A model generated the notes under the pieces. The model did not search any database. It worked only from the letters and a program-made list of their open reading frames with translations, and was not told where the DNA came from. The position numbers and the translations under genes were made by a program. From the NCBI RefSeq assembly GCF_009914755.1, contig NC_060933.1: a stretch of 64,000 nucleotides of DNA, one strand, 5' to 3'. This document shows positions 11,215 to 40,284 of the stretch, piece by piece; position 1 is the first letter of the stretch, and the number at the start of each line of letters is the position of its first letter. This DNA is from the human T2T-CHM13v2.0 reference genome, Homo sapiens.

Positions 11215-12229
11215 ATGGGGAAAAAACAGAACAGAAAAACTGGAAACTCTAAAAAAGCAGAGTGCCTCTCCTCCAAAGGAACGCAGCTCCTCACCAGCAA
11301 TGCAACAAAGCTGGATGGAGAATGACTTTGATGAGTTGAGAGAAGAAGGCTTCAGACAATCAAACTACTCCGAGCTACAGGAGGAATTTCGAACCAATGG
11401 CAAAGAAGTTAAAAACTTTGAAAAAAAAATTAGATGAATGGATAACTAGAATAACCAATGCAGAGAAGTCCTTAAAGGACCTGATGGAGCTGAAAACCAA
11501 GGCACGAGAACTACGTGACGGATGCACAAGCCTCAGTAGCCAATGAGATCAACTGGAAGAAAGGGTATCAGTGATGGAAGATGAAATGAATGAAATGAAG
11601 CGAGAAGAGAAGTTTAGAGAAAAAAGAATAAAAAGAAATGAACAAAGCCTCCAAGAAATATGGGACTATGTGAAAAGACCAAATCTACGTCTGATTAGTG
11701 TACCTGAAAGTGACAGGGAGAATGGACCCAAGTTGGAAAACACTCTGCAAGATATTATCCAGGAGAACTTCCCCAGTCTAGCAAGGCAGGCCAACATTCA
11801 GATTCAGGAAATACAGAGAATGCCACAAAGATCCTCCTCGAGAAGAGCAACTCCAAAACACATAATTGTCAGATTCACCAAAGTTGAAATGTAGGAAAAA
11901 ATGTTAAGGGCAGCCAGAGAGAAAAGTCGGGTTACCCTCAAAGGGAAGCCCATCAGACTAATAGCTGATATCTCGGCAGAAACTGTACAAGCCAAAAGAG
12001 AGTGGGGGCCAATATTCAACATTCTTAAAGAAAAGAATTTCAACCCAGAATTTCATATCCAGCCAAACTAAGCTTTATAAGTGAAGGAGAAATAAAATCC
12101 TTTACAGACAAGCAAATGCTGAGAGATTTTGTCACCACCAGGCCTGCCCTAAAAGAGCTCCTGAAGGAAGCACTAAACATGGAAAGGAACAACCAGTACC
12201 AGCCACTGCAAAAACATGCCAAATTGTAA
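11215..12229 (+). pseudogene. ORF1: L1-A ORF1, disrupted
   Basis: ATGGGGAAAAAAC start; frameshifts and stops (e.g. TAG at 11892); fragment 11571-11894 matches ORF1p. Confidence 0.93.
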
Positions 12230-12292
12230 AGACCATCAAGGCTAGGAAGAAACTGCATCAACTAACAAGCAAAATAGCCAGCTGACATCACA

Positions 12293-15200
12293 ATGACCGG
12301 ATCAAATTCACACATAACGACATTAACTTTGAATGTAAATGGGCTAAATGCTCCAATTAAAAGACACAGACTGGCAAATTGGATAGAAAGTCAAGACCCA
12401 TCAGTGTGGGGTGTTCAGGAAACCCATCTCACGTGCAGAGACAAACATAGGCTCAAAATAAAGGGATGGAGGAAGATCTACCAAGCAAATGGAAAACAGA
12501 AAAAGGCAGGGGTTGCAATCCTAGTCTCTTATAAAACAGACTTTAAACCAACAAAGATTAAAAGAGACTAAGAAAGTCATTACATAATGGTAAAGGGATC
12601 AATTCAACAAGAAGAGTTAACTATCCTAAATATGTATGCACCCAATACAGGAGCTCCCAGATTCATAAAGCAAGTCCTGAGTGGCCTACAAAGAGACTTA
12701 GACTCCCACACAATAATAATGGGAGACTTTAACACCCCACTGTCAACATTAGACAGATCAGCGAGACAGAAATTTAAGAAGGATATCCAGGAATTGAACT
12801 CAGCTCTGCACCAAGGGGACCTAATAGACATCTACAGAACTCTCCACCCCAAATCAACAGAATATACATTCTTTTCAGCACCACACCACACCTGTTCCAA
12901 AACTGACCACATAGCTCCAAGTAAAGCACTCCTCAGCAAATGTAAAAGAACAAAAATTATAACAGTCTCTCAGACCACAGTGAAATCAAACTAGAACTCA
13001 GGATTAAGAAACTCACTCAAAACCGCTCAACTACATGGAAACTGAACAACCTGCCCCTGAATGACTACTGGGTACATAACGAAATGAAGGCAGAAATAAA
13101 GATGTTCTTTGAAACCAACGAGAACAAAGACACAACATACCAGAATCTCTGGGACACATTCAAAGCAGTGTGTAGAGGGAAATTTATAGCACTAAATGCC
13201 CACAAGAGAAAGCAGGAAAGATATAAAATTGACACCCTAATGTCACAATTAAAAGAACTAGAGAAGCAAGAGCAAACACATTCAAAAGCTAGCAGGAGGC
13301 AAGAAATAACTAAGATCAGAGCAGACTGAAGGAAACAGAGACGCAAAACACCCTTCAAAAAATCAGTGAATCCAAGAGCTGGTTTTTTGAAAAGATCAAC
13401 AAAATAGATAGACCACTAGCAAGAGTAATAAAGAAGAAAAGAAAGAAGAATCAAATAGATGCAATAAAAAATGATAAAGAGGATATCACCACCGATCCCA
13501 CAGAAATACAAACTACCATCAGAGAATACTATAAACACCTCTACACAAATAAACTAGAAAATCTGGAATAAATGGATAAATTCCTCGACACATACATCCT
13601 CCCAAGACTAAACCAGGAAGAAGTTGAATCTCTGAATAGACCAATAACAGGCTCTGAAATTGAGGCAATAATCAATAGCTTATCAACCAAAAAAAGTCCA
13701 GGACCAGATGGATTCACAGCCAAATTCTACCAGAGGTACAAGGAGGAACTGGTACCATTCCTTCTGAAACTATTCCAATCGATAGAAAAAGAGGGAATCC
13801 TCCCTAACTCATTTTTTGAGGCCAGCGTCATCCTGATACCAAAGCCTGGCAGAGACAGAACCAAAAAGAGAATTTTAGACAAATATCCTTGATGAACCCT
13901 GATGCAACAATCCTCAGTAAAATACTGCCTAACCGAATCCAGCAGCACATCAAAAAGCTTATCCAACATGATGAAGTGGGCTTCATTCCTGGGATGCAAG
14001 TCTCGTTCAACATACGCAAATCAATAAATGTAATCCAGCATATAAACAGAACCAAAGACAAAAACGAAATGATTATCTCAATAGATGCAGAAAAGGCATT
14101 TGACAAAATTCAACAACACTTCATGCTAAAAACTCTCAATAAATTGGGTATTGATCAGACATATCTCAAAATAATAAGAGCTATCTATGACAAACCCACA
14201 GCTAATATCATACGGAATGGGTAAAAACTGGGAGCATTCCCTTTGAAAACTGGCACAAGACAGGGATGCCCTCTCTCACCACTCCTATTCAACATAGCAT
14301 TGGAATTTCTGGCAGGGCATTCAGGCAGGAGAAGGAAATAAAGGGTATTCAATTAGGAAAAGAGGAAGTCAAATTGTCCCTGTTTGCAGATGACATGATT
14401 GTATGTCTAGAAAATCCCATTGTCTCAGCCCCAAATCTCCTTAAGCTGATAAGCAACTTCAGCAAAGTCTCAGGATACAAAAATCAATGTACAAAAATCA
14501 CAAGAATTCTTATACACCAATAACAGACAGAGAGCCAAATCATGAGTGAGCTCCCATTCACAATTGCTTCAAAGAGAATAAAATACCTAGGAATCCAACT
14601 TACAAGGGATGTGAAGGACCTCTTCAAGGAGAACTACAAACCACTGCTCAATGAAATAAAAGAGGATACAAACAAATGGAAGAACATTCCATGCTCATGG
14701 GTAGGAAGAATCAATATTGTGAAAATGGCCATACTGCCCAAGGTAGTTTATAGATTCAATGCCATCCCCATCAAACTACCAACGCCTTTCTTCACAGAAT
14801 TGGAAAAAACTACTTTAAAGTTCATATGGAACCAAAAAAGAGCCTGCATCACCAAGTCAGTCCTAAGCCAAAAGAACAAAGCTGGATGCATCATGCTACC
14901 TGACTTCAAACCATACTACAAGGCTACAGTCACCAAAACAGCATGGTGCTGGTACCAAAACAGAGCTATACACCAATGGAACAGAACAGAGCCCTCAGAA
15001 ATAATGCTGCATATCTACAACCATCTGATCTTTGACAAACCTGACAAAAACAAGAAATGGGAATAGGATTCCGTATTGAATAAATGGTGCTGAGGAAACT
15101 GGCTAGCCATATGTACAAAGCTGAAAGTGGATCCCTTCCTTACACCTTATACAAAAATTAATTCAAGATGGATTAAAGACTTCGATGTTAGACCTAAAAC

Positions 15201-38400: not shown

Positions 38401-39205
38401 CTCATGGGTTTCAAAGAACATCTTTATTTCTGCCTTCATTTCATTATGTGCACAGTAGTCATTCAGGAGCAGATTGTTCTGTTTCCATGTAGTTGAGCGG
38501 TTTTGAGTGAGTTTCTTAATCCTGAGTTCTAGTTTGATTGCACTGTGGTCTGATAGACAGTTTGTTATAACTTCTATTCTTTTACATTTGCTGAGGATTG
38601 CTTTACTTCCAACTATGTGGTCAATTTTGGGATAAGTGTGATGTGGTGCTGAGAAGAATGTATATTCTGTTGATTTGGGGTGGAGAGTTCTGTCGATGTC
38701 TATTAGGTCCACTTGGTGCAGAGCGTATTTCAATTAACTGGATATCCTTGTTAACTTTCTGTCTCATTGATCTGTCTAATGTTGACAGTGGGGGGTCTAA
38801 GTCTCTTTGTAGGTCTCCAAGGACTTGCTTTATGAATCTGGGTGCTCCTGTATTGGGTGCATATATATTTAGGATAGTTAGCTCTTCTTGTTGAATTGAT
38901 CCCTTTACCATTATGTAATGGCCTTCTTTGTCTCTTTTGATCTTTGTTGGTTTAAAGTCTGTTTTATCAGAGACTAGGATTGCAACCCCTGCTTTTCTTT
39001 GTTTTCCATTTGCTTGGTAGATCTTCCTCCATCCCTTTATTTTGAGCCTATGTGTGTCTCTGCACGTGAGATGGGTTTCCTGAATACAGCACGCTGATGG
39101 GTCTTGACTCTTTATCCAATTTGCCAGTCTGTGTCTTTTAATTGGAGCATTTAGCCCATTTACACTTAAGGTTAATATTGTTATGTGTGAAATTGATCCT
39201 ATCAT
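35414..39205 (-). pseudogene. ORF2: L1-C ORF2, multiply disrupted
   Basis: Fragments in the ORF track; ~30-bp deletion near 38795 removes the EN GDFN motif; FADD is changed to FAHD. Confidence 0.95.
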
Positions 39206-39268
39206 TATGATGTTAGCTGGTTATTTTGCTCATTAGTTGATGCAGTTTCTTCCTAGCCTTGATAGTCT

Positions 39269-40284
39269 TTACAATTTGGCATGTTTTTGCAGTAGCTGGT
39301 ACTGGTCTTTCCTTTCCATGTTTAGTGCTTCCTTCAGGAGCTCTTGTAAGGCAGGTCTGGTGGTGACAAAATCTCTCAGCATTTGCTTGTCTGTAAAGGA
39401 TTTTATTTCTCCTTCACTTATGAAGCTTAGTTTGGCTAGATATGAAATTCTGGGTTGAAAATTCTTTAAGAATGCTGAATATTGGCCCCCACTCTCTTCT
39501 GTCTTGTAGAGTTTCTGCCGAGAGATCAGCTGTTAGTCTGATGGGCTTCCCTTTGTGGGTAACCCAACCTTTCTCTCTGGCTGCCCTTAATGTTTTTTCC
39601 TTCATTTCAACCTTGGTGAATCTGACAATTATGTGTCTTGGAGTTGCTCTTCTCGAGGAGGATCTTTGTGGTGTTCTCTGTATTTTCTGAATGTGAGTGT
39701 TGGCCTGCCTCACTAGGTTGGGGAAGTTCTCCTGGATAGTATCCTGCAGAGTGTTTTCCAACTTGGCTCCATTCTCCCCGTCACTTTCAGGTACACCGAT
39801 CAGATGCAGATTTGGTATTTTCACACAGCCCCATATTTCTTGGAGGCTTTGTTCGTTTCTTTTTACTCTTTTTTCTCCAAACTTCTCTTCTCACTTCATT
39901 TCATTCATTTGATCTGCAATCACTGATACCCTTTCTTCCACTTGATCAAATCGGCTACTCAAGCTTGTGCATGCATCATGTAGTCCTCGTGCCATGGTTT
40001 TCAGCTCAATCAGGTCATTTAAGGACTTCTCTAGATTGTTTATTCTAGTTATCCATTCGTGTAATCTTTTTTCAAGGTTTTTAGCTTCTTTGTGATGGGT
40101 TTGAACATCCTCCTTTAGCTCGGAGAAGTTTGTTATTACTGATCGTCTGAAGCCTTCTTGTCTCAACTCATCAAAGTCATTCCCTGTCCAGCTTTGTTGC
40201 TGGCGAGAGGCTATGTTCCTTTGGAGGAGAAGAGGCACTCTGATTTTTAGAATTTTCAGCTTTTCTGCTCTGGTTTCTCCCCAT
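39269..40284 (-). pseudogene. ORF1: L1-C ORF1, disrupted
   Basis: ORF fragments 39891-40238 and 39414-39824. Confidence 0.92.

What the first reader, a model, noticed from the sequence alone, without database searches (positions are those of the whole stretch)
11833..39661. L1-A also shares clustered private variants with L1-C, about 19 kb away
Seen: variants shared by L1-A and L1-C but not L1-B are ORF1 TAC>TCC (11833/39661), GGG>GAG (13480/38045), an ORF2 cluster (14966/36555, 14971/36550, 15078/36443, 15116/36405, 15208/36313) and an identical 3' UTR run gatatacctaaAgtaaatgaGgagttaatgggtgTagcac with three departures from the consensus I recall (16206, 16215, 16229 / 35320, 35311, 35297). 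Inference: these are separate conversion tracts between a second inverted pair.
Basis: partly seen in the sequence, partly recalled or inferred. Interest (0 to 1): 0.72.

Follow-up and report, generated by a model that had tools for sequence, protein, structure and literature searches.

The report
Neighbouring dead L1 copies swapped variants
Two dead L1 retrotransposon copies about 19 kb apart, of different ages, share a dozen rare base changes found together nowhere else in the genome, most likely because one was used as a repair template for the other.

Summary
The window carries three full-length, dead L1PA copies: A (10189-16329, +), B (20765-26800, -) and C (35206-41276, -). All ten listed positions are A=C≠B at the stated coordinates.

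Most A=C≠B sites are only B's own or B-subfamily changes: 122 of 189.

- **3'UTR triple:** it occurs together in 2 of 3459 matching genomic copies, namely A and C.
- **ORF2 double:** 3 of 10183 copies.
- **Position 11833 (C):** 14 of 6092 copies.

A and C belong to different subfamilies. A carries its own 14-bp target-site duplication; C's is weak.

Among 276 pairs of full-length L1PA copies, unlinked pairs share on average 0.27 private transversions, with a maximum of 3. A and C share 7.

Non-allelic gene conversion is the best explanation. Only the 3'UTR block looks like a clean tract: 88 bp identical. The ORF2 cluster shows no drop in divergence, so it is patchy or old. Direction and date are unresolved.

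Neighbouring L1 pairs on chr1, direct ones included, show the same excess, so the inverted orientation is probably not essential. This is a new instance of a known kind of event.

The parts
10189..16329 (+). L1-A: full-length dead L1PA of a middle subfamily on the L1PA ladder, flanked by a 14-bp target-site duplication.
   Evidence: BLAST extent. The TSD AAAATACCAAAAGC lies at both ends. The longest ORF is 174 aa. In the trees it sits between younger and older copies. It has the middle-group state at 42 of 44 old-versus-middle diagnostic sites.
20765..26800 (-). L1-B: full-length dead L1PA of a younger subfamily. It serves as the comparison copy that lacks the shared variants.
   Evidence: BLAST extent. 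12-bp TSD AAAGACAGGTCA. It lies in the youngest clade of the sample and has the younger-type 3'UTR.
35206..41276 (-). L1-C: near-full-length dead L1PA of an older subfamily, and partner of A.
   Evidence: BLAST extent. It groups with the old copies L055 and L037. It has the old-group state at 37 of 44 diagnostic sites. Its TSD is only a weak 8 bp.
16175..16261 (+). 3'UTR block in A: an 88-column run identical to C that holds the three shared rare variants 16206 A, 16215 G and 16229 T.
   Evidence: Identity run. The triple occurs in 2 of 3459 genomic copies. No other copy has the triple with up to one further change in the 34-mer. Older L1 fragments in the window carry T, then C or T, then C.
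35265..35351 (-). 3'UTR block in C, the counterpart of A 16175-16261. The shared variants lie at 35320, 35311 and 35297.
14966..15208 (+). ORF2 cluster in A: shared rare variants at 14966 C, 14971 C, 15062 A, 15078 G, 15116 C and 15208 T, interleaved with A-only and C-only changes.
   Evidence: None of 26-27 sampled copies carries any of them, except 15062 with 1 of 27. Genome counts: the double 14966+14971 in 3 of 10183; 15078G in 95 of 15736; 15116C in 86 and 15208T in 163. Interleaving is shown.
36313..36555 (-). ORF2 cluster in C, the counterpart of A 14966-15208.
11833..11833 (+). ORF1 single shared transversion A>C (C copy 39661). It may come from exchange or from chance.
   Evidence: None of 19 sampled copies has it. 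It occurs in 14 of 6092 genomic copies.
13480..13480 (+). ORF2 single shared transition G>A (C copy 38045). This is the weakest of the ten sites.
   Evidence: None of 16 sampled copies has it. The variant 25-mer occurs 175 times genome-wide; I took no denominator.

Best explanation
A and C are independent L1 insertions of different subfamilies that later exchanged short stretches of sequence by non-allelic (ectopic) gene conversion. A break or gap in one copy was repaired by homologous recombination using the nearby copy as template, so base changes that had arisen privately in the donor were copied into the acceptor.

At least two events, or one patchy event plus one clean one, are needed:
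- **3'UTR tract.** Its length is between 24 and about 135 bp. It left 88 bp of perfect identity and is therefore fairly recent. With zero differences in 88 bp, it falls within roughly the younger half of A's lifetime if rates are uniform.
- **ORF2 exchange (14966-15208).** This one is older or discontinuous.

**Shown:** the sharing, its rarity, its excess over chance, its clustering, and the separate subfamilies of A and C (their separate insertion is shown for A, whose TSD is clear; C's TSD is weak).

**Inferred:** the recombinational mechanism, the number of events and the relative ages.

**Not resolved:** the donor, the date, and whether the events were meiotic or mitotic.

The elements are dead, so no function is involved. 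This is a mutational footprint.
For: 1. **Rarity of the 3'UTR triple.** A, G and T at 16206, 16215 and 16229 occur together in 2 of 3459 genomic matches, exactly A and C. With up to 2 mismatches allowed there are 195 matches. The only two 1-mismatch hits carry two of the three variants, and none of the first 100 listed carries all three.
2. **Rarity of the other variants.** The ORF2 double occurs in 3 of 10183 copies. The third copy, on chr13, shares none of the nine other A/C-rare sites it covers. Across five lists of rare variants, only A and C appear in more than two.
3. **Empirical null.**
   - Pair-private shared variants in 153 pairs average 1.3 (0.43 transversions); A-C has 11 (7 transversions), the maximum.
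   - In 276 pairs, the 263 unlinked pairs average 0.89 (0.27 transversions) with maxima of 6 and 3; A-C has 9 (7 transversions).
   - Poisson P = 2e-8.
4. **Different subfamilies.** The trees are ladder-like, with C among the old copies and A in the middle. At 44 diagnostic sites, A has the middle state at 42 and C the old state at 37.
5. **Independent insertions.** A has a clear TSD of its own and C a weak one. A-C homology ends at the L1 boundaries.
6. **Clustering.** Permutation p is 0.0013 to 0.00025. The 88-bp identity run sits around the triple.
7. **Distance dependence, as expected for ectopic conversion.** Ten chr1 L1 pairs less than 200 kb apart average 4.4 shared private variants (1.8 transversions), against 0.89 (0.27) for unlinked pairs. 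Mann-Whitney p is 1.9e-5 overall and 2.5e-8 for transversions. This includes both evaluable pairs that I fetched afterwards because they were neighbours (7 and 11 shared variants), which are not sisters in the tree.
8. **Precedent.** Gene conversion between neighbouring Alu copies, detected from shared non-diagnostic mutations and falling off with distance, is described in print. I read passages of PMC6598467 and PMC8230782.
Against: - **No divergence dip in ORF2.** A and C differ at 22 of 243 positions between 14966 and 15208. This is my count from the listing. It is about 9%, the same as the whole-element distance of 0.095.
- **No single continuous tract is possible there.** A keeps its own subfamily states at 15008, 15009 and 15012, between shared sites. 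Very short or discontinuous tracts must be assumed.
- **The identity run is not significant alone.** The 88-bp run gives n×P = 0.23, and a 94-bp run elsewhere is longer.
- **No direction signal.** No subfamily-diagnostic state has visibly moved between A and C near the shared sites.
- **Some sites are probably coincidences.** Three of the 15 rare sites are CpG transitions, and about one shared private variant per pair is expected by chance.
- **One assembly only.** No orthologous or population sequence was available, so the change of state was never observed directly.
- **Small samples.** The sample of other copies is small (15-42 per site) and comes from chr1 only. The near-pair test has only 10 pairs, which are not fully independent.
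Confidence: 0.78

Rival explanations
1. Chimeric birth. The shared variants entered A when it inserted. The nascent L1 cDNA or the repair of the insertion intermediate used nearby C as a template, or reverse transcriptase switched onto a transcript of C. On this reading the exchange is part of retrotransposition and not a later conversion.
For: In the ORF2 cluster, A-only changes are about as dense as over the whole of A: 7 in the 147 bp from 15062 to 15208, my count. If that cluster is a single tract, this fits an exchange at about the time A inserted. From recall, not checked here: cell-culture work on L1 insertion intermediates has described chimeric L1s formed with endogenous copies.
Against: - A has an ordinary 14-bp TSD and a complete structure.
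- The 3'UTR block shows no difference in 88 bp, which points to a later event.
- C-only changes are not depleted in the cluster: 9 in 151 bp, my count.
- A keeps its own subfamily states inside the cluster.
- Other neighbouring pairs of several ages show the same scattered sharing.
Confidence: 0.07
2. Rare sublineage. A and C descend from the same unusual source lineage, and the shared bases are inherited.
For: Each variant taken alone exists in other copies: 95, 86, 163, 175 and 14 places. One chr13 copy has the ORF2 double. One chr9 copy has 15078G plus 15208T. Two chr8 copies have two of the three UTR variants.
Against: - No other copy combines more than two of the variants.
- The partial matches are at the numbers expected if the variants are independent.
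- A and C belong to different subfamilies, so a side lineage would have had to persist while also taking on the mainstream changes.
- A lineage with two members lying 19 kb apart is not credible.
Confidence: 0.04
3. Chance parallel mutation at the same sites in two old copies.
For: Unlinked pairs share on average 0.89 private variants. Three of the 15 sites are CpG transitions, and 13480A is fairly common.
Against: A-C shares seven private transversions, against a mean of 0.27 and a maximum of 3 in 263 unlinked pairs. Poisson P is 2e-8. The sites are clustered. The expected number of copies with the UTR triple under independence is about 0.02, my arithmetic from rough single-variant counts.
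Confidence: 0.03
4. Assembly or polishing artefact. Reads from one copy were used to correct the other.
For: Only one assembly was examined.
Against: The copies differ by 9.5%, far too much for long accurate reads to be confused. The shared sites are interleaved with many retained differences. The same pattern appears in other neighbouring pairs of 4-7% divergence.
Confidence: 0.03

Closest known systems
Non-allelic gene conversion between neighbouring Alu elements (Aleshin and Zhi 2010, as described in PMC6598467 and PMC8230782; I read passages of these two only)
   Same: Both are detected as non-diagnostic (private) mutations shared by nearby copies of a dispersed retrotransposon. Both show an excess that depends on proximity. 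Both involve short tracts in dead copies.
   Different: The elements here are 6-kb L1s, not 300-bp Alus. The partners are 19-28 kb apart and 9.5% divergent. The passages I read give a range of about 10 kb for Alu and best efficiency at 89-100% identity. PMC8230782 says most work on conversion between transposable elements has been on Alu.
Interlocus gene conversion between segmental duplications and duplicated genes (Mansai et al. 2011, cited in PMC6598467; other work recalled)
   Same: The same mechanism: a paralogous copy serves as repair template, tracts are short, and the rate depends on distance and identity.
   Different: A and C are not duplicates of one another. They are separate insertions of different subfamilies, with homology confined to the element itself.
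Replacement of an old repeat copy by a younger subfamily through conversion (Kass et al. 1995 for Alu, cited in PMC6598467; similar reports for human L1 are recalled and were not checked)
   Same: Exchange between members of different subfamilies of one retrotransposon family.
   Different: In those cases subfamily-diagnostic positions change over much or all of the element. Here no diagnostic position has visibly moved, and only private variants are shared.
Arm-to-arm conversion in large palindromes such as those on the Y chromosome (recalled)
   Same: Inverted repeats on one chromosome that exchange sequence.
   Different: Palindrome arms are kept nearly identical. Here the divergence stays at 9.5%, the exchange is sporadic, and direct-orientation neighbours elsewhere do the same.

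Membership tests
Non-allelic (ectopic) gene conversion between dispersed repeats | The partners are separate loci, not one duplicated segment. | tested here: met
   Homology ends at the L1 boundaries. A and B have their own TSDs of 14 and 12 bp; C has a weak 8-bp one. The subfamilies differ.
Non-allelic (ectopic) gene conversion between dispersed repeats | The partners share derived variants that other family members lack, beyond chance. | tested here: met
   There are 15 shared-rare sites. The UTR triple occurs in 2 of 3459 copies. A-C shares 7 private transversions, against a maximum of 3 in 263 unlinked pairs.
Non-allelic (ectopic) gene conversion between dispersed repeats | Shared variants lie in contiguous tracts with locally reduced divergence. 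| tested here: inconclusive
   The 3'UTR block fits: 88 bp identical around three rare variants. The ORF2 cluster does not: 22 differences in 243 bp, my count, and A keeps its own diagnostic states at 15008, 15009 and 15012.
Non-allelic (ectopic) gene conversion between dispersed repeats | Sharing falls off with distance between copies. | tested here: met
   Ten chr1 pairs under 200 kb apart average 4.4 shared private variants (1.8 transversions). The 263 unlinked pairs average 0.89 (0.27). Mann-Whitney p is 1.9e-5 overall and 2.5e-8 for transversions. The sample is small.
Non-allelic (ectopic) gene conversion between dispersed repeats | A change of state at one locus is seen when orthologues or populations are compared, which gives donor and date. 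| not testable with these tools
   Only the window's own assembly is held. The tool states that it has no relatives.
Non-allelic (ectopic) gene conversion between dispersed repeats | GC bias among transferred variants. | tested here: inconclusive
   Among the 12 non-CpG shared variants, 3 run from weak to strong bases, 4 from strong to weak and 5 are neutral. This is my tally, and the numbers are too small to judge.
L1PA subfamily or sublineage diagnostic variants | The same combination of variants is present in many unlinked copies. | tested here: not met
   The triple occurs only in A and C. No other copy has more than two of the variants.
Segmental (inverted) duplication | Homology extends into the flanks, and the copies are sisters with uniformly low divergence. 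| tested here: not met
   There is no flank homology. Divergence is 9.5% and the copies are not sisters in the tree.

The most novel reading that the evidence does not exclude
Patchy, templated exchange of single variants and short blocks may be a general property of neighbouring L1PA copies in the human genome. It would act over tens of kb, and perhaps up to about 150 kb. It would act between copies 4-10% divergent and of different subfamilies, and in both orientations. That is well beyond the roughly 10-kb range described for Alu.

If so, a measurable share of the 'private' substitutions in old L1s are copied from neighbours and are not new mutations. That would bias age estimates based on divergence, and it would make L1-dense regions evolve partly in concert.

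The regional clumping of single rare L1 variants would be part of the same effect. For example, six copies with 15078G lie within chr4:115.2-115.8 Mb.
Probability: 0.4. Interest if true: 0.6.

Novelty: new member of a known kind. Interest (0 to 1): 0.38.

Why it matters
For this locus alone it matters little. All three elements are dead, no gene is near, and nothing functional is implied.

The case is a clean worked example with genome-wide counts. It shows that two L1 copies of different subfamilies, 19-28 kb apart and 9.5% divergent, have exchanged sequence.

The small control set built for it suggests that neighbours do this often. If that holds genome-wide, three things would need a correction for copying between neighbours:
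- L1 dating by divergence
- subfamily assignment from rare variants
- mutation-spectrum studies that treat old repeats as independent neutral replicates

It would also extend to L1 the distance and identity limits described for repeat-to-repeat conversion in humans. My three paper searches found such analyses only for Alu. One further search on the topic led to the general review PMC6598467.

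Tried and rejected
- **Public viral contigs.** I searched for the 3'UTR pattern to obtain independent L1 copies and got 0 matches. I then used the window's own genome.
- **Older L1 fragments in the window as outgroup.** They cover only the 3' end. They gave T, then C or T, then C at the three UTR sites.
- **Identity-run test.** The 88-bp A-C run is not significant alone (n×P = 0.23), so I use it only together with the rare variants.
- **Donor inference from old-versus-middle diagnostic sites.** No diagnostic state has moved near the shared sites, and few such sites lie in ORF2. 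Direction stays open.
- **One continuous ORF2 tract.** Rejected. A keeps its own states at 15008, 15009 and 15012, and neither A-only nor C-only changes are depleted.
- **The chr13:85161596 copy with the same ORF2 double as a possible third member.** It shares none of the nine other rare variants it covers.
- **Larger sample of full-length copies.** Two of the eight extra copies (L056, L059) did not reach full-length coverage, so their pairs could not be scored.
- **Literature.** Four searches found reviews and Alu studies. None found a genome-wide analysis of L1-L1 conversion between neighbours. The library lacks most subscription journals, so this does not show that none exists.

Full report
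**What is in the window.** BLAST of the first element against the whole window finds three full-length L1 copies. A lies at 10189-16329 on the + strand, B at 20765-26800 on the - strand, and C at 35206-41276 on the - strand.
- A and C match at 89.1% over 6154 columns. A and B match at 93.5% over the ORFs.
- Homology stops at the element ends.
- A is flanked by a 14-bp target-site duplication and B by a 12-bp one. C has only a weak 8-bp candidate.
- No copy keeps an intact ORF2. The longest open frames are 174 aa in A, 587 aa in B and 245 aa in C.
- These are old, dead, separately inserted L1PA elements. A is inverted relative to both B and C, with the 3' ends facing.

The raw class A=C≠B has 189 sites, against 350 for A=B≠C and 183 for B=C≠A. 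With three sequences and no outgroup, such a site says only that B differs. The real question is which of the 189 are states that A and C share against the rest of the family.

**Polarising with other genomic copies.** The window's own genome can be searched by pattern, and this gave an outgroup. I collected 30 3'-end loci and 20 near-full-length L1PA copies from chr1, and later 8 more. I read the base each carries at every variable position.

Of the 189 A=C≠B sites:
- 122 have the A/C state as the sample majority, so B changed or B belongs to a younger subfamily.
- 41 are polymorphic between subfamilies.
- 11 have too few sampled copies.
- 15 have an A/C state found in at most 10% of the sample, while B has the common state.

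The 15 sites are 10552, 11200, 11833, 13480, 14157, 14966, 14971, 15062, 15078, 15116, 15208, 15403, 16206, 16215 and 16229. Eight are transversions. Three (10552, 14157, 15403) are CpG transitions and are likely coincidences.

The same count gives 8 sites for the pair A-B and 3 for B-C.

Most of the many A=C≠B sites in the 3'UTR are ordinary. A's ladder neighbours share the older UTR type with C, while B's clade has the younger type. No sampled copy has A at 16206 or G at 16215, and one has T at 16229. Two older L1 fragments in the window also carry the common states there.

**Genome-wide counts.**

| Variant | Copies carrying it | Copies matching the pattern |
|---|---|---|
| 3'UTR triple (34-mer) | 2 (A and C) | 3459 |
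| ORF2 double at 14966/14971 | 3 | 10183 |
| 11833 C | 14 | 6092 |
| 15078 G | 95 | 15736 |
| 15116 C | 86 | not taken |
| 15208 T | 163 | not taken |
| 13480 A | 175 | not taken |

- For the 3'UTR 34-mer, none of the first 100 listed matches has more than one of the three A/C states.
- Allowing two mismatches gives 195 matches. The only two 1-mismatch hits each carry two of the three variants. None of the 100 listed carries all three; 95 two-mismatch hits were not listed.
- The third copy with the ORF2 double, on chr13, shares none of the nine other rare sites it covers.
- Crossing the lists, only A and C appear in more than two of them. One other copy, at chr9:26.46 Mb, has two, about what independence predicts.

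The shared bases are therefore neither ancestral states nor a sublineage.

**Different subfamilies.** Maximum-likelihood trees of the full-length copies are ladder-like, as expected for L1PA. B sits in the youngest clade sampled, A in the middle, and C with the oldest copies.

There are 44 sites where three old copies agree against eight middle copies. A has the middle state at 42 of them and C has the old state at 37. The A-C distance is 0.095.

**Is the sharing more than chance?** I counted, for every pair of full-length copies, the variants carried by exactly those two copies in the whole sample.
- In 153 pairs the mean is 1.3, or 0.43 for transversions. A-C is the maximum with 11, of which 7 are transversions.
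- In the larger set of 24 copies (276 pairs), the 263 unlinked pairs average 0.89 (0.27 transversions), with maxima of 6 and 3. A-C has 9, of which 7 are transversions.
- A Poisson tail for 7 transversions at a mean of 0.28 is 2e-8.
- The measured genome frequencies fit this null. A specific transversion at about 0.6% in each copy, over about 6000 sites, predicts roughly 0.4 shared transversions per pair (my arithmetic).
- The 15 sites are also clustered. Six fall within 242 bp (permutation p = 0.0013; 0.00025 for the 12 non-CpG sites) and three within 23 bp (p about 0.01-0.02).

**Anatomy of the shared stretches.**

*The 3'UTR block behaves like a tract.* A 16175-16261 and C 35351-35265 are identical over 88 columns that include the three rare variants. 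It is bounded by diagnostic differences at 16153/16158 and 16294, so the tract is between 24 and about 135 bp long. The run is not significant on its own (n×P = 0.23). However, given private-change rates of about 3% per copy, zero differences in 88 bp puts the event in roughly the younger half of A's lifetime. This is inference and assumes uniform rates.

*The ORF2 cluster is different.* Between 14966 and 15208 the six shared-rare sites are interleaved with 7 A-only and about 10 C-only changes. A and C differ at 22 of 243 positions, no less than elsewhere. A keeps its own subfamily states at 15008, 15009 and 15012. A single continuous tract is excluded. The cluster needs either several very short tracts, or a long heteroduplex repaired in patches, or an old event overlaid by later change.

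*The singletons.* The single sites 11200, 11833 and 13480 cannot be assigned individually.

**Mechanism.** The best explanation is non-allelic gene conversion: homologous repair of one copy using the neighbour as template. It would have occurred at least twice, or once cleanly and once in patches. I put this at about 0.78.

The donor is unknown. No subfamily-diagnostic state has visibly crossed near the shared sites, and ORF2 has few such sites.

The rivals are:
- a chimeric origin at the time A inserted (0.07)
- a rare sublineage (0.04)
- chance, for the whole set (0.03)
- an assembly artefact (0.03)

**A control that turned into a lead.** Among the chr1 copies fetched as a null, the pairs with raised sharing were themselves genomic neighbours. 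I then fetched four more neighbouring pairs chosen only for proximity.

Two of the four could be scored. They shared 11 and 7 private variants, though neither pair is a sister pair in the tree. Both are in direct orientation.

Over the 10 chr1 pairs less than 200 kb apart, the mean is 4.4 (1.8 transversions), against 0.89 (0.27) for unlinked pairs. Mann-Whitney p is 1.9e-5 overall and 2.5e-8 for transversions. In these pairs the shared variants are scattered over kilobases, like the patchy pattern in A-C.

The sample is small and the pairs are not fully independent. Even so, it supports distance-dependent exchange, and it argues that inversion is not required.

**Comparison with what is known.** Conversion between neighbouring Alu copies has been described. 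It was detected from shared non-diagnostic mutations, within about 10 kb, and falls off with distance. I read passages of PMC6598467 and PMC8230782. The latter states that most work on conversion between transposable elements concerns Alu.

Four searches of the paper library found no genome-wide analysis of conversion between neighbouring L1s. The library lacks most subscription journals, and from recall there are older reports of L1 copies converted by younger ones.

The present case is thus a new member of a known kind. It is notable for the distance (19-28 kb between homologous positions), the divergence (9.5%) and the difference in subfamily.

**Verdict.**
Exchange between A and C is the best reading. 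Tract structure is clear only in the 3'UTR. Orientation is probably incidental. Date and donor are open.
- Interest is modest for the locus and greater for the possible general effect.

Noticed in passing
window 10189-16329 versus 20765-26800 (L1-A versus L1-B): A and B share 8 rare variants, 6 of them transversions: 10543, 10673, 13569, 14785, 14931, 15459, 15669 and 15886. They also have two unusually long identical runs: 205 bp at A 15673-15877 and 193 bp at A 14553-14745, with n×P of 0.001-0.002. A therefore looks like a partner of both neighbours.
   Followed up: partly
window L1-B versus L1-C: A-coordinates 12542-12679 and 13264-13386 (C 38956-38819 and 38259-38136): B and C, which are in direct orientation, have identical runs of 138 and 124 bp, with n×P of 0.003 and 0.012 under a uniform rate. 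Yet they share no pair-private variant in the strict count. This may be conversion without markers, or simply a low-mutation stretch.
   Followed up: no
chr1 loci L047/L048, L041/L042, L049/L050, L051/L052, L060/L061, L062/L063: Neighbouring full-length L1PA copies 14-160 kb apart share 4-11 pair-private variants, against a mean of 0.89 for unlinked pairs. Both orientations occur. L060/L061, L062/L063, L047/L048, L041/L042 and L049/L050 are not sisters in the tree; L051/L052 are sisters.
   Followed up: partly
genome-wide lists for 15078G and 15116C: Copies carrying the same single rare L1 variant are clumped regionally. For 15078G there are six in chr4:115.2-115.8 Mb, six in chrX:52.1-53.2 Mb and four in chrX:80.1-80.4 Mb. 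For 15116C there are five in chr4:57.2-57.5 Mb, four in chr1:147.3-147.6 Mb and four in chr14:25.8-26.3 Mb. That gives 52 and 36 same-variant pairs within 1 Mb among 95 and 86 copies. I did not check whether these are duplications or exchange between neighbours.
   Followed up: no
L035 (chr13:85160096-85163115): This is the only other genomic L1 copy with the same two-base ORF2 change as A and C at 14966/14971. It shares none of their nine other rare variants that it covers. The same unusual double change five bases apart has apparently arisen twice.
   Followed up: yes
window 44591-45057 (-), 34300-34645 (-), 48944-49617 (-), 18417-19587 (-): These are fragments of much older L1 3' ends, 66-80% identical to A. 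Two of them served as outgroups for the 3'UTR sites.
   Followed up: partly
window 10189-16329: A has a longer terminal branch than its ladder neighbours in both trees. Part of that length may be variants taken in from B and C, but the roughly 23 shared-rare sites are too few to explain all of it.
   Followed up: no
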